Sequence record: PZ452600.1
Reading direction: 5' to 3' (one strand)
Origin: a phage
DNA: 50,825 nucleotides
Under the pieces are notes generated by a model that searched no databases, was not told where the DNA came from, and saw nothing but the letters and a program-made list of their open reading frames with translations. Position numbers and translations under genes: made by a program. This document shows positions 22,227 through 26,442 of this stretch, piece by piece; the first letter of the stretch is position 1; each line of letters starts with the position of its first letter.

Positions 22227-22298
22227 CAAACCAAACAAATAGCTAAACTTTTATAATGGTTGGTGATATAATTCGCCAACCAGATGGCGGGAGAGTGA

Positions 22299-22955
<657 letters not shown>

Positions 22956-23455: not shown

Positions 23456-23486
23456 AAAAAGCCCCGCATATGCGGGGCTTTTTTTA
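23456..23486. terminator. bidirectional terminator (ssb / fibre chaperone gene)
   Basis: A5, GCCCCGCATATGCGGGGC, T7. Confidence 0.7.
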
Positions 23487-24178
23487 GTCTAACGTGGTTG
23501 GTTTGTTTACCAGTGCCGCTACAACCGCTTTTAGCTCGTCAATTTCTTTTCTCATCTCATCGTTTTCCGCTTTCAGTTTCTTAACGTGGTGAATCAGTGG
23601 AACAGTGAGGCGGTCATACATAACGCCTTCCGCCACCATGCCATTACTTGAAGCAATGGCAGGATCTTCTCCTTCTTGCAGCGGTCGCCAGTGAACGTAC
23701 TCCGGCGCAATTTCTCCAACCTCTTCCGCGATTAGCCCGTACCATCCCCAATCTTTACGGTCGCTTTCACAGGTTGACCGATACCACACAGGACGCATTT
23801 CAAGCATCAGATCCGCATATTCATCAATAACCGATTCTACGCTGCGCTTATAACGAGAAGAGGAAGTGGAGCGTAAAACTTGCGACACTCCAGCATTTGG
23901 ATCAAGCCATAAGTTTGCTGATTGAGCGGTTGTGTTTAGTCTAAACAAATAAAATGCCTCGTTACCAGTCAGGGGGTAAAAATTGCCACCATACCTTCCG
24001 CTATCCAACTCGGACGATAGATCATTTTGTTTTAGATACAACTTCAACTTATTGTCAACATCAGTAGTTGATGCTTTTCCTGCAACATCCTGTTTTAGTG
24101 TCGAAACATCCTGATTTATCGTAGAAACATCATTTTCAGCTTCGTTATATCACTAGGTATAACAGTTACTGTAGCCAT
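23484..24178 (-). CDS. tail-fibre-associated protein with C-terminal intramolecular-chaperone-like domain (frame-interrupted)
   Basis: AAGGAG + ATG 24178 opens a 20-codon ORF; the adjacent frame runs from 24149 to 23484 with no ATG; heptad-like repeat continues across the A4 run at 24133-24136; C-terminus has GLIAEEV-type motif. Confidence 0.5.
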
Positions 24179-24190
24179 TTTCCTAACTCC

Positions 24191-24471
24191 TTAAGCCCAT
24201 TCTCTAATCGGCTGATCTAACTCAACCACGTAGCCGTTAAAAATTACGGCATCAAACTTATCATCAATGATTCGCACATTGACGAAATAGCCGTCGTTCT
24301 TTCGCGCAATCTCATCGCCATCGTCAGATCGTGCAATTACTGTGTAAGTATTGCCGATTACATCGAGCAGGATTGCATCCTGAATGGATTCGTTTTCGTT
24401 CCATTCGATTATTTCCAGAAAGGCGGAAAACTCCGCCTTGTCTACAAATTTCAGTGTTAAATCACGCATTA
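24191..24471 (-). CDS. hypothetical protein (tail-fibre operon)
   Basis: TAATG overlap with lateral-fibre stop; 93 aa starting MRDLTLK. Confidence 0.45.
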
Positions 24472-26442
24472 TACAATTTCCCCCAATTGATGATCTGTTA
24501 GTGCCTTGTGCCATATACGGAAGTTTCTAACGTGCCCAAAAAGATGTCGCGCTCCTGTATTTGTTTGACCTCCAATCCTTATAGTAGCCGTTGATACTAT
24601 GTATCTCCATTCCGTTTTTGTTTCGCTTGATATTATGGCATTGCTTACACAACAAGTATTGTAATCACTCTTTACTCTCATTCCTATGATCATCTTTTTT
24701 AGCTTCGCATTCTCGTTAACCCTTCTGTTTGATTTACCTATATCGCAATAAGGGAATCCATCAGCATCGCCTTCGGCAGACCCGAAAGCAAGAATAATTG
24801 CCGCGCCAGATTGATGACCTCCAGTATCGAAAACACGAGGCGCAGCATTTGGCGTTCTACTCCAGTTTTTATGAGCCTCCACAAGAACTGTAAACGGCAA
24901 ATTGTAAAGGTTGTTTTTTATTGGCACTGTAACCATATCGCTTGCCCTTGTAGTTGCATTCACTCCAGAAATAATAAATGAAGAAACACAAGACCCATCC
25001 TCTACCTGTGGAGTTGCAAGATATATGTGATCACCAGATACAGTTGCACCACCTTCCTGTGGTGCATATTGTATTTGAGATCCTATTTTTATCTCACCAT
25101 CAACAGCCTGTATTGTAGCTTCCGCAAAAACCCAGCCAGTAACATCATCTCTTTTAGCTCTTGCGGTAATCCTTGATGCAGCACCGCCTGTCATATTAAT
25201 TTCAAGCGTTTGTGTATCAATATACGCATCACCAAGAAAAGTTGTTGCGCTACCGTCATATTTATCAAACCGGATACGCAACCTTACCTGTAGTTCTGTT
25301 TTAAAACGACATGAGGTTGTCACGTATTTATTATCGCCTGAGACATAAACTGACTTGGTTGCTGCAATTGATGCCATATTAATGGCTGACGTTTGTCCGA
25401 TTAGAGAATCGTTACAGACGAACTTTCCATAGGTAAAACCAAAACTATCCGTCCCTGTTTCGGGAACATCCATATTTGACGATCTCCCCCAACTGGCAGG
25501 GTTTTCCGAATTGAGCATGTAGTTTGTTCTTTGCCCCTCAATAAGCAGGCCATCACGTTCAAAACGTGGTTCATCAATTGCTGCAACAGTGAAAACGCCT
25601 GATTTATTAATGTATGTAGCAGTTGATGCACGTTTAAACTTAACTATCTTGTCACCTGGCATCGTGATCTCATCGTCACCTATAACAATCTTTTTGTATG
25701 ACGGCGAGAATCCGGTAATCATATCCAGGGAGTCATTAAATGGTATCCACACGTCCGGCAACGGTTGCAATAAGTCCTTGTAAGGTTCTGCAGCCTGCTT
25801 TGCGTATTCCTCCGCTTGATCTCGCGCACTTTCAGCTCCTGCCTTTGCAGTGTTCGCAGCGTCACGCGCGGATTCAGCGCCAGACTTTGCTGCTTCAGCG
25901 CCAGTCTTTGCAGTGTTTGCAGCGTCGCGCGCGGATTCAGCGGCAGCCTTTGCAGTGTCAGCACCTTTCTTGCTATTCTCTGCATTTGTTGCGCTTGTCT
26001 TTGCGTTATTCTCGCTAGTTTTAGCTGCCTTCTGGCTTGCTGCGGCTGCGTCAGCATTTGTCTTTACGTCTTCCTGGATCTTCTGTAGCTTATCCCAATC
26101 AAAATCCTTGATGATCTCAATAAATCCAGCAAGCTCCGACTCCTTTCCCTGGTAATAACGCAACGTTTCCGCTACGTCTTGCGCAAGACCGTCAACCGTT
26201 AACGAGTCATGAAGCAAGATCAGGTAATTTGTCTTCTGTACTACCGCGCCGCCAGTAGTAATTGCGCGAATGCTTGTATCGCTAATCACTTCTGTAATCA
26301 CAGCAGCTTGCAAAGGTTGAGCAAGAAAGAAAATAGTTGCGCCTGGGCGAATCAAGGTTAATTGCTCACGCCATTTTGTACCGTAACCAGTTACATAACC
26401 TTGCGCGTCCATAGACGCTTGGCCTTGTCTGTAAATCGCCAT
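24469..26442 (-). CDS. lateral tail fibre protein
   Basis: 657 aa from ATG 26442 (AGGAGG 9 nt upstream); Ala-rich tandem repeats (AKTGAEAAKSGAESARDAANTAKAGAESARD) and Gly/Thr-rich distal domain. Confidence 0.75.
   Translation of the reverse strand: MAIYRQGQASMDAQGYVTGYGTKWREQLTLIRPGATIFFLAQPLQAAVITEVISDTSIRAITTGGAVVQKTNYLILLHDSLTVDGLAQDVAETLRYYQGKESELAGFIEIIKDFDWDKLQKIQEDVKTNADAAAASQKAAKTSENNAKTSATNAENSKKGADTAKAAAESARDAANTAKTGAEAAKSGAESARDAANTAKAGAESARDQAEEYAKQAAEPYKDLLQPLPDVWIPFNDSLDMITGFSPSYKKIVIGDDEITMPGDKIVKFKRASTATYINKSGVFTVAAIDEPRFERDGLLIEGQRTNYMLNSENPASWGRSSNMDVPETGTDSFGFTYGKFVCNDSLIGQTSAINMASIAATKSVYVSGDNKYVTTSCRFKTELQVRLRIRFDKYDGSATTFLGDAYIDTQTLEINMTGGAASRITARAKRDDVTGWVFAEATIQAVDGEIKIGSQIQYAPQEGGATVSGDHIYLATPQVEDGSCVSSFIISGVNATTRASDMVTVPIKNNLYNLPFTVLVEAHKNWSRTPNAAPRVFDTGGHQSGAAIILAFGSAEGDADGFPYCDIGKSNRRVNENAKLKKMIIGMRVKSDYNTCCVSNAIISSETKTEWRYIVSTATIRIGGQTNTGARHLFGHVRNFRIWHKALTDHQLGEIV
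25820..25975 (-). repeat. tandem ~63-bp repeats inside lateral tail fibre gene
   Basis: CTTTGCAGTGTTYGCAGCGTCRCGCGCGGATTCAGCGSCAG... repeated about 2.5 times; encodes Ala-rich peptide repeat. Confidence 0.6.

What the first reader, a model, noticed from the sequence alone, without database searches (positions are those of the whole stretch)
24116..24178. Frame interruption at an A4 homopolymer in the tail-fibre chaperone-domain gene
A strong RBS and ATG (24178) open a 20-codon ORF (MATVTVIPSDITKLKMMFLR*). The -1 frame then runs 216 codons to 23484 with no ATG and encodes a GLIAEEV-type chaperone-like domain. The repeat pattern DITKLK / NDVSTI / NQDVSTL / KQDVAGK reads continuously across the junction at the A4 run (minus-strand AAAA, 24133-24136). 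Either a one-base homopolymer error (A4 for A5), a programmed frameshift, or a recent pseudogenising mutation.
Basis: seen in the sequence. Interest (0 to 1): 0.55.

Follow-up and report, generated by a model that had tools for sequence, protein, structure and literature searches.

The report
One-base deletion breaks side-fibre gene
A T1-like coliphage genome has lost one A from a run of five near the start of a small accessory tail-fibre gene, which switches the gene off; the same gene is broken in many different ways in related phages, much as laboratory lambda lost its side fibres, so the event is ordinary but fits a recurring pattern.

Summary
On the minus strand, AAGGAG-N8-ATG (24178) opens a 20-codon ORF, and the -1 frame then runs 216 codons to 23484. 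All 24 orthologous stand-alone genes whose DNA I read have AAAAA (swan01 has AAAAG) where the window has AAAA (24133-24136), and they read MATVTVIPSDITKLKNDVSTINQDV... in one frame of 224-245 codons. The window therefore carries a derived one-base deletion.

The gene lies in the lateral-tail-fibre locus (stf, a 92-codon gene, then this gene). It encodes a heptad-repeat N-terminus, a short fibre segment and a C-terminal self-cleaving intramolecular chaperone (Peptidase S74).

A programmed frameshift is rejected: there is no slippery heptamer, no downstream structure, and no ortholog keeps the two-frame layout.

Error versus real mutation cannot be settled without reads. I favour a real, recent null mutation (about 0.65). 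This is the only broken gene in the genome, although 72 longer homopolymers exist. Relatives carry at least ten other distinct lesions in this gene, five of them nonsense alleles, while flanking genes are intact. This resembles the lambda PaPa stf frameshift. Interest is modest.

The parts
24187..24192 (-). Shine-Dalgarno AAGGAG, 8 nt upstream of the start codon; overlaps the TAA stop of the upstream 92-codon gene
   Evidence: Sequence read; conserved in orthologs
24116..24178 (-). Truncated 5' part of the gene as it stands in the window: ATG plus 19 codons plus TAA. The first 15 codons are the authentic N-terminus; codons 16-20 are out of frame.
24133..24136 (-). AAAA run. The 24 orthologous stand-alone genes read have AAAAA (AAAAG in swan01). 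This is the site of the one-base deletion.
   Evidence: exact A4 28-mer absent from IMG/VR and JGI metagenome contigs, A5 version present
23484..24134 (-). Remaining 216 codons plus stop of the gene in the -1 frame (residues 16-231 of the ancestral 231-residue protein)
   Evidence: 92-96% identical to intact 227-245-residue orthologs
24038..24151 (-). Heptad-repeat (DITKLKN / DVSTINQ / DVSTLKQ / DVAGKAS...) N-terminal region. Copy number varies among orthologs in 7- and 14-residue steps (224, 231 and 245 codons). Limits are approximate.
23487..23864 (-). Intramolecular chaperone / Peptidase S74 domain, from catalytic Ser (23862-23864; Ser91 of the 216-residue frame, Ser106 of the repaired protein) through Lys (23847-23849) and GLIAEEV to the C-terminal long helix
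   Evidence: Pfam PF13884; invariant columns; PDB profile hits; model and Foldseek
23456..23478 (.). GC-rich hairpin GCCCCGCA-TATG-CGGGGC flanked by A and T runs, lying between this gene and the convergent ssb gene; probably a bidirectional terminator
   Evidence: Sequence read; not analysed further
24191..24469 (-). Upstream 92-codon gene of unknown function (phrog_1361), intact in the window and in all 18 relatives checked
24469..26442 (-). Lateral (side) tail fibre gene stf, intact (657 codons from the ATG that orthologs use). Its N-terminal ~120 residues are the conserved tail-attachment part.
   Evidence: ortholog annotations

Best explanation
The window is a complete genome of a T1-like coliphage (Drexlerviridae, genus Warwickvirus). 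The gene at 23484-24178 (minus strand) is the last gene of the lateral-tail-fibre locus.

In its intact form it encodes a protein of about 231 residues with three parts:
- an N-terminal heptad-repeat segment, presumably a trimeric coiled coil;
- a short fibre segment;
- a C-terminal intramolecular chaperone (Peptidase S74) domain. In characterised relatives this domain drives trimer folding and then cuts itself off at a Ser/Lys dyad.

In this genome one A has been lost from an A5 run at codons 15-16. Translation therefore ends after 20 codons and the protein is not made. No start codon with a ribosome-binding site lies downstream to rescue it.

I judge this most likely to be a real and very recent loss-of-function mutation in a conditionally dispensable accessory-fibre gene. 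It is the same kind of event as the stf frameshift of laboratory lambda.

Shown here: the deletion, the domain identity, the locus architecture and the recurrence of lesions in relatives. Inferred: that the base is really missing in the phage DNA, that the protein is a fibre component, and that its loss is tolerated or favoured on laboratory hosts.
For: 1. Deletion. All 12 orthologs first fetched have five bases at this position against the window's AAAA (AAAAA, or AAAAG in swan01). So do six contigs that differ from the repaired gene at only 8-9 positions (of 696 nt, or of 408 nt for the truncated L056).

2. Intact single gene elsewhere. Eleven of the 24 stand-alone orthologs first read on DNA carry an intact gene of 224, 231 or 245 codons.

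3. The assembly is not error-prone. Of 112 long ORFs shared with the nearest genome, this is the only real gene broken. The window has 72 homopolymers of 6-9 nt and none breaks a gene.

4. The same gene is inactivated independently in relatives:
- C5 to C6 in AV105, JLBYU19, orkinos and Logan contig L048;
- +CC in JLBYU10;
- -G in ityhuna;
- -A near the 3' end in SECphi27;
- a TA duplication in L049/L050;
- nonsense TAA in JLBYU07 and EC195, TAG in tuinn, TGA in Phunderstruck, TAA in L019.
These lesions are scattered over the gene tree, and the closest pairs carry different lesions.

5. Flanking coding sequence is open in all 19 genomes. Eleven of 19 broken versus 0 of 19 gives Fisher p = 1.3e-4.

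6. Intact copies are under purifying selection (pN/pS 0.20). Broken copies look no more degraded (0.27), so the lesions are recent.

7. Domain identity. PF13884 scores 22.3 bits. Ser91 and Lys96, Ser+5 apart, are invariant and GLIAEE is invariant across 36 homologues. Profile hits fall on the C-termini of tail-fibre chains 8hqz and 6f45 and on the MyRF domain 7dc3. The 12 best Foldseek hits are all intramolecular-chaperone structures.

8. Fibre role. In contig L018 the same module is the C-terminus of a single 1195-residue fibre whose N-terminus matches the window's stf. PHROG matches always fall at the extreme C-terminus of long fibre families.

9. Literature. Lateral fibres of these phages are thought to bind O-antigen and are not needed on K-12 (bioRxiv 10.1101/2021.03.08.434280). 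Lambda PaPa lost its side fibres through a frameshift without loss of plating (PMC12617516).
Against: - No sequencing reads are available, so a single consensus error at this A5 run cannot be excluded.
- The A4 allele was found nowhere else, and the genome itself is not in the collections searched. There is therefore no independent confirmation.
- My sample of relatives was partly chosen for looking split in their annotation. The fraction broken (about 10-11 of 32 annotated isolates, judged) is approximate.
- The function of the protein in virions is untested. It could be a leftover 3' module from a fibre-gene exchange, although pN/pS of 0.2 and abundant stand-alone prophage homologues argue that it is functional.
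- The data do not separate relaxed selection from positive selection for loss.
Confidence: 0.65

Rival explanations
1. Sequencing or assembly error: the phage really has A5 and an intact gene, and one A was dropped when the consensus was built.
For: - The lesion lies in a homopolymer.
- It is unique to this genome.
- The rest of the gene is perfectly conserved, with no second lesion.
- The nearest alleles, 8-9 nt different, all have A5.
Against: - It is the only frame-broken gene among 112 long ORFs.
- Seventy-two longer homopolymers (6-9 nt), which are much more error-prone, cause no frame break.
- The gene it hits is exactly the one that carries real lesions, including nonsense substitutions, in about a third to a half of related isolates. 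That would be an unlikely coincidence for a random error.
Confidence: 0.25
2. Programmed recoding: ribosomes shift -1 at CUG AAA A (or the polymerase slips on the A run), so that a full-length protein is still made from the two frames.
For: - A -1 shift after Lys15 would regenerate exactly the ancestral sequence KLKNDV.
- E. coli tRNA-Lys is known to be shift-prone (from general knowledge).
- A low background level of such shifting cannot be excluded.
Against: - There is no X XXY YYZ heptamer in the 0 frame.
- The base before AAA is G, so re-pairing would be poor.
- There is no downstream structure (MFE z = -0.07).
- A run of four A's is far below the lengths that give efficient transcriptional slippage (general knowledge).
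- None of the 24 orthologous stand-alone genes read has the two-frame layout. A programmed signal would be conserved.
Confidence: 0.02
3. Two real genes: a 20-residue peptide followed by a separate chaperone-domain gene that starts at an internal start codon, for example TTG 24047 (187 codons).
For: the ORF listing reports a 187-codon TTG ORF. Gene callers annotate comparable downstream fragments in broken relatives.
Against: - There is no Shine-Dalgarno sequence before TTG 24047.
- The first in-frame ATG is at codon 110, beyond the catalytic serine.
- Intact orthologs have one gene starting at the conserved AAGGAG-N8-ATG.
- The fragment boundaries in broken relatives differ from phage to phage, following each lesion.
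Confidence: 0.03
4. Reversible on/off switching (a contingency locus): short homopolymers in this gene act as slippage-prone switches, so that phage populations contain mixtures with and without this fibre module. The window would have captured the 'off' state.
For: - Five of the ten-plus lesions lie in short mononucleotide runs.
- C5 to C6 recurs in four separate lineages.
- A preprint reports contingency loci in T-even phages and names Warwickvirus as the BASEL genus with the highest density of repeats of 6 nt or more (10.1101/2025.10.21.683753). The window has 1.42 such repeats per kb.
Against: - The tracts involved (A5, C5, A4, GG, CC) are shorter than the 6-nt threshold used for such loci.
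- Half of the lesions are nonsense substitutions or a TA duplication, which are not reversible by slippage.
- The A5 site is hit only in the window.
- That preprint found such repeats under-represented in tail-fibre genes.
Confidence: 0.05

Closest known systems
Lambda PaPa stf frameshift (Hendrix and Duda 1992, as summarised in PMC12617516)
   Same: A single frameshift in a side-tail-fibre locus gene of a siphovirus abolishes an accessory fibre that is not needed for plating on laboratory E. coli. The phage remains fully viable.
   Different: - In this case the broken gene is a small separate gene carrying the S74 chaperone module, not the main fibre gene, and stf itself is intact.
- Loss has happened many times independently across a genus, not once in a laboratory lineage.
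- No adsorption or plaque phenotype has been measured.
T5 L-shaped tail fibre pb1 and endosialidase endoNF C-terminal intramolecular chaperone (Peptidase S74; PDB 4uw8, 3gw6)
   Same: The Ser/Lys dyad has the same S+5 spacing. There is a GLIAEEV-type motif and a long C-terminal helix. The structural matches are among the best hits. The module sits at the C-terminal end of a fibre module, and T5 fibres are likewise dispensable on rough hosts (PMC12617516).
   Different: In T5 and endoNF the domain ends a polypeptide of about 1000 residues or more. In the window it ends a stand-alone protein of about 231 residues, separated from stf by a 92-codon gene. A related contig (L018) has the fused one-polypeptide form.
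Phage contingency loci (homopolymer frameshift switches in T2/T4; bioRxiv 10.1101/2025.10.21.683753)
   Same: Frameshifts arise at mononucleotide runs in phage genes. The genus is rich in such runs.
   Different: The tract is only 5 nt. Many lesions in the same gene are not slippage events. No evidence of reversibility or of population heterogeneity is available.
Stand-alone 'tail fiber domain-containing protein' of about 227-234 residues in E. coli prophages (P0022, P0023)
   Same: Same length, the same N-terminal VIPGDITxLK heptad repeats and the same S74 domain, at 58-59% identity. The stand-alone architecture is therefore widespread.
   Different: These are prophage-encoded, and their function is likewise uncharacterised.

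Membership tests
Peptidase S74 / intramolecular chaperone auto-cleavage (ICA) domain | Sequence match to Pfam PF13884 above the curated cut-off | tested here: met
   22.3 bits against a cut-off of 22.0, residues 106-162 of the repaired protein. This is borderline, but many homologues carry a precomputed PF13884 hit, and a profile of homologues hits PDB chains with this domain (8hqz_d at 1e-5, 7dc3 at 3e-4, 6f45 at 0.01).
Peptidase S74 / intramolecular chaperone auto-cleavage (ICA) domain | Catalytic Ser-Lys dyad with the Lys five residues after the Ser (endoNF S911/K916, MyRF S587/K592; PMC8326128) | tested here: met
   Ser91 and Lys96 of the 216-residue frame (STSSSRYK) are invariant in 11 and in 36 homologues. 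They align to SDRRIK of 6f45.
Peptidase S74 / intramolecular chaperone auto-cleavage (ICA) domain | Fold resembling solved ICA domains, including the long C-terminal helix | tested here: met
   In the AF2 model residues 100-210 have pLDDT 85-97, with a helix at 173-209. The 12 best Foldseek PDB hits are 7dc3 (E = 5e-5), 3gw6, 3gud and 4uw8. Only 7dc3 is statistically strong.
Peptidase S74 / intramolecular chaperone auto-cleavage (ICA) domain | Trimerisation-dependent self-cleavage and release of the domain | not testable with these tools
   This requires protein expression and SDS-PAGE or mass spectrometry.
Programmed -1 ribosomal frameshift site | Slippery heptamer X XXY YYZ in the upstream frame | tested here: not met
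   A scan of the 0 frame found none. The site reads G CUG AAA AUG.
Programmed -1 ribosomal frameshift site | Downstream stimulatory RNA structure | tested here: not met
   The MFE is -13.6 kcal/mol against a shuffle mean of -13.4, z = -0.07.
Programmed -1 ribosomal frameshift site | Two-frame arrangement conserved in orthologs | tested here: not met
   None of the 24 orthologous stand-alone genes read has it. All are in frame across this site.
Homopolymer contingency locus (as defined in 10.1101/2025.10.21.683753) | Mononucleotide repeat of at least 6 bases inside the gene | tested here: not met
   The ancestral tract is A5 and the window has A4. The longest runs in the gene are T5 and C5.
Homopolymer contingency locus (as defined in 10.1101/2025.10.21.683753) | Recurrent, reversible length change at the same tract | tested here: inconclusive
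   The A5 tract is changed only in the window. The C5 tract is expanded to C6 in four separate lineages. Reversibility cannot be tested with these tools.
Laboratory-type loss of accessory side fibres (lambda PaPa type) | Inactivating mutation in a side/lateral tail-fibre locus gene of a viable phage | tested here: met
   Viable isolates with null alleles are listed.
Laboratory-type loss of accessory side fibres (lambda PaPa type) | Loss changes adsorption rate or plaque size but not plating on hosts that lack the fibre receptor | not testable with these tools
   This requires adsorption and plaque assays with isogenic A4 and A5 phages.

The most novel reading that the evidence does not exclude
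The small S74-domain gene of Warwickvirus phages is a hotspot of repeated, selected inactivation, and possibly of partly reversible inactivation at the C5 and A5 runs. Populations would then continually generate variants that lack this fibre module, and isolation on rough laboratory E. coli (or some host factor that senses the protein) would enrich them. The window's A4 allele would be one instance of a genus-wide on/off polymorphism rather than an isolated accident.
Probability: 0.15. Interest if true: 0.55.

Novelty: new member of a known kind. Interest (0 to 1): 0.3.

Why it matters
For this genome, the practical consequence is annotation. The two ORFs should be recorded as one disrupted gene (or corrected if reads show A5), not as a 20-residue peptide plus a separate "chaperone".

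More broadly, the comparison shows that this accessory-fibre gene is knocked out independently in about a third or more of sequenced Warwickvirus isolates, while its neighbours stay intact. This matters in three ways:
- Phage collections used for host-range and therapy work may differ silently in their fibre equipment.
- Host ranges measured with such stocks may understate what the wild phage can do.
- The genus offers a simple, testable system for asking why accessory fibres are lost, whether through relaxed selection on rough hosts or through an advantage of slower adsorption.

Tried and rejected
- Single-sequence AlphaFold model of the 216-residue frame: pLDDT 38, unusable. It was replaced by a model built on a 36-sequence alignment.
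- phmmer of the single protein against PDB sequences: only spurious hits to an antibody Fab and a coiled coil. A profile of homologues was needed.
- Exact-pattern scans for the A4 allele in IMG/VR and in JGI metagenome contigs: no hit.
- Attempts to locate the window's own genome through its exact stf protein (both possible starts) and the 187-residue downstream ORF: not on record. No independent assembly and no source information could be obtained.
- Raw list of indels against two near relatives: dominated by compensated pairs in divergent stretches and by intergenic homopolymer differences. It was replaced by an ORF-by-ORF tblastn audit.
- Amber-suppressor explanation for the nonsense alleles: rejected, because the stops are TAA, TAG and TGA.
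- Shared ancestry as the explanation for shared lesions: rejected by the gene tree, although recombination could also spread an allele.
- Isolates versus metagenome contigs (0 of 6 complete unbiased metagenome contigs of this type broken, against about a third of isolates): suggestive only. The numbers are too small, and some assembly-derived contigs (L019, L048-L050) are broken.
- Literature searches found no paper describing this gene's recurrent disruption in Drexlerviridae. That is not proof that none exists.

Full report
**1. What is in the sequence**

Read on the minus strand:
- AAGGAG lies at 24192-24187 and overlaps the TAA stop of the upstream gene. The ATG at 24178 follows 8 nt later.
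- The ORF reads MATVTVIPSDITKLKMMFLR and stops at TAA 24118-24116.
- Codon 15 (AAA) plus the first base of codon 16 form the AAAA run at 24136-24133.
- Starting at 24134, the -1 frame encodes 216 residues and ends at TAA 23486-23484. A GC-rich hairpin follows at 23456-23478, shared with the convergent ssb gene.

One detail needs qualifying. The long frame lacks ATG only in its first 109 codons; in-frame ATGs occur from codon 110.

**2. Source and comparison with orthologs**

The window is a complete, collinear genome of a T1-like coliphage (Drexlerviridae, Tempevirinae, Warwickvirus). It is about 97% identical to the nearest records and has no identical record.

I fetched the orthologous locus from 18 GenBank phages, two near-full genomes and several assembly contigs.
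- In 12 of 12 orthologs first aligned, the site reads CTGAAAAAT (AAAAGT in swan01) where the window has CTGAAAAT.
- Six contigs that share the window's exact upstream protein, and differ from the repaired gene at only 8-9 positions (of 696 nt, or of 408 nt for the truncated L056), also have A5. The five of them in which the gene is complete have an intact 231-codon gene.
- Intact orthologs have one gene of 224, 231 or 245 codons starting at the same AAGGAG-N8-ATG, and they read ...DITKLKNDVSTINQDVSTLKQDVAGK... without interruption.

The window has therefore lost one A. Exact searches for the A4 allele found nothing in IMG/VR or in JGI metagenome contigs; the A5 version is present.

**3. What the gene encodes**

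- The repaired protein matches Pfam Peptidase_S74 just above the cut-off.
- PHROG matches always fall on the extreme C-terminus of long tail-fibre families.
- A profile of homologues hits the C-termini of an L-shaped tail-fibre chain (8hqz), a long-tail-fibre distal subunit (6f45) and the MyRF auto-cleavage domain (7dc3).
- Ser91 and Lys96 of the 216-residue frame are invariant in 36 homologues. Their spacing is that of the catalytic dyad defined for endoNF (S911/K916) and MyRF (S587/K592) (PMC8326128). GLIAEE is also invariant in all 36, and the following Val is nearly so.
- An AlphaFold model built on 36 sequences is confident for residues 100-210. Its 12 best PDB matches are all intramolecular-chaperone structures: 7dc3, 3gw6, 3gud and 4uw8.
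- The N-terminal 45 residues are heptad repeats whose number varies among orthologs in steps of 7 or 14 residues. That fits a coiled coil.

**4. Locus architecture**

The gene is the third of three on the minus strand: stf (657 codons), a 92-codon gene of unknown function, and this gene. The locus lies between the primase and the ssb/erf/exonuclease genes.

In a related 52-kb contig (L018) the same position holds one 1195-residue fibre. Its first ~120 residues are nearly identical to the window's stf, and its last ~190 residues are 78% identical to this gene's product. In more distant contigs the module ends fibres of 931 and 958 residues.

The Warwickvirus arrangement is thus a split version of a lateral-tail-fibre locus. 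The BASEL authors describe the same kind of variation for these phages and suggest that the fibres bind O-antigen without being required on K-12 (10.1101/2021.03.08.434280). Stand-alone homologues of about 230 residues are abundant in E. coli prophages, so the small form is a widespread gene type.

**5. Programmed frameshift**

A programmed frameshift is rejected for four reasons:
- The 0 frame has no X XXY YYZ heptamer, and the base before AAA is G.
- The 91 nt downstream fold no better than shuffled sequence (z = -0.07).
- Four A's are far too few for efficient transcriptional slippage (general knowledge).
- No ortholog has the two-frame layout.

A separate downstream gene is also unlikely. 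There is no ribosome-binding site before the first alternative start (TTG 24047), and the first ATG lies beyond the catalytic serine.

**6. Error or mutation**

Reads are not available, so this stays open, but three observations favour a real mutation.

First, in an ORF-by-ORF audit against the nearest genome, this is the only real gene of 112 that is frame-broken. The window contains 72 homopolymers of 6-9 nt, and none of them breaks a gene.

Second, the same gene carries other lesions in relatives:
- C5 to C6 in AV105, JLBYU19, orkinos and Logan contig L048;
- +CC in JLBYU10;
- -G in ityhuna;
- -A near the 3' end in SECphi27;
- a TA duplication in L049/L050;
- nonsense codons in JLBYU07 and EC195 (TAA), tuinn (TAG), Phunderstruck (TGA) and the uncultivated contig L019 (TAA);
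- probably one more nonsense allele, behind protein P0042, which ends where a Trp is expected.

Nonsense substitutions are not homopolymer artefacts. In the gene tree the lesions are scattered, and the closest pairs carry different lesions, so these are many independent events on terminal branches.

Third, the flanking coding sequence is open in all 19 genomes examined. Eleven of 19 broken versus 0 of 19 gives Fisher p = 1.3e-4.

Intact copies show pN/pS of 0.20. Frame-repaired broken copies show 0.27. The gene is therefore normally under purifying selection, and the lesions are recent.

From the annotation patterns, about 10-11 of 32 annotated isolates are broken. My fetched sample over-represents broken ones, because I chose some for looking split.

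**7. Interpretation**

The most economical reading is a conditionally dispensable accessory-fibre gene. Null alleles arise easily and are tolerated, or favoured, during isolation and propagation on rough laboratory E. coli, but they do not persist over evolutionary time.

This is the pattern known from lambda PaPa, whose stf frameshift removed the side fibres without affecting plating, and from T5, whose L-shaped fibres are non-essential on rough hosts (PMC12617516).

Whether loss is merely neutral or actively selected cannot be decided from these data. Terminal-branch lengths of 0.5-1% would allow a sizeable fraction of neutral knock-outs.

A contingency-locus reading (10.1101/2025.10.21.683753) is attractive because C5 to C6 recurs four times and the genus is rich in homopolymers. 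However, the tracts are shorter than that study's threshold, and half of the lesions are not slippage events.

**8. Verdict**

The 'A4 for A5' reading is right, and the programmed frameshift is rejected. A real recent null mutation (about 0.65) is favoured over a consensus error (about 0.25).

By itself the finding is ordinary: one more disrupted accessory-fibre gene. The recurrent disruption across the genus is a modestly interesting and readily testable side result.

Noticed in passing
Orthologs of window 23484-24178: L001-L003, L009, L012, L019, L042-L045, L047-L050: The same small S74-domain gene is independently inactivated in many relatives, with at least ten distinct lesions: five frameshift sites, one TA duplication and at least four nonsense codons. 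The flanking genes remain intact. C5 to C6 recurs in four separate lineages, and TAC to TAA at codon 175 recurs in two.
   Followed up: yes
window about 24038-24151 (minus strand) and orthologs: The N-terminal heptad-repeat region varies in length among orthologs in units of 7 or 14 residues, giving genes of 224, 231 and 245 codons. One Logan variant has 227 codons. This keeps a coiled-coil register.
   Followed up: partly
L018:10-3597 (IMGVR_UViG_3300045988_025133): A related T1-like contig has a single 1195-residue lateral fibre. It combines the window's stf N-terminus with the window's S74-gene C-terminus, so the Warwickvirus locus looks like a split or exchanged version of that gene.
   Followed up: partly
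L019:493-1200 and L009 (tuinn): Two independent nonsense mutations hit adjacent codons of the invariant GLIAEEV motif: GLIA*EVG in an uncultivated contig and GLIAE*VG in phage tuinn.
   Followed up: no
whole window: There are 72 mononucleotide runs of 6 nt or more (1.42 per kb; 15 of them 7-9 nt). This matches a preprint's statement that Warwickvirus has the highest density of such repeats among BASEL genera. Length differences from relatives at these runs lie in intergenic regions (for example 7263, 19476, 33361).
   Followed up: partly
window 23456-23478: A GC-rich hairpin (GCCCCGCA-TATG-CGGGGC) flanked by an A run and a T run lies between the convergent S74 gene and ssb. It is probably a bidirectional terminator.
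   Followed up: no
window about 25770-26080 (minus strand; stf residues ~130-230): The stf protein contains an alanine-rich, quasi-repetitive stretch (..AKTSENNAKTSATNAENSKKGADTAKAAAESARDAANTAKTGAEAAKSGAESARDAANTAKAGAESARDQAEE..). It aligns with a longer stretch of the same kind in the fused fibre of L018.
   Followed up: no
window 24469: The stop codon of stf and the start codon of the 92-codon gene overlap by one base, as annotated in all orthologs. The 92-codon gene's stop overlaps the ribosome-binding site of the S74 gene. The three genes are therefore probably translationally coupled.
   Followed up: no
L015 22295-22552 (phage Tuinin) versus window about 22230-22300: Tuinin carries an extra 258-nt ORF between the exonuclease and erf genes that the window and L014 lack. 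It is annotated, implausibly, as a tape-measure protein.
   Followed up: no
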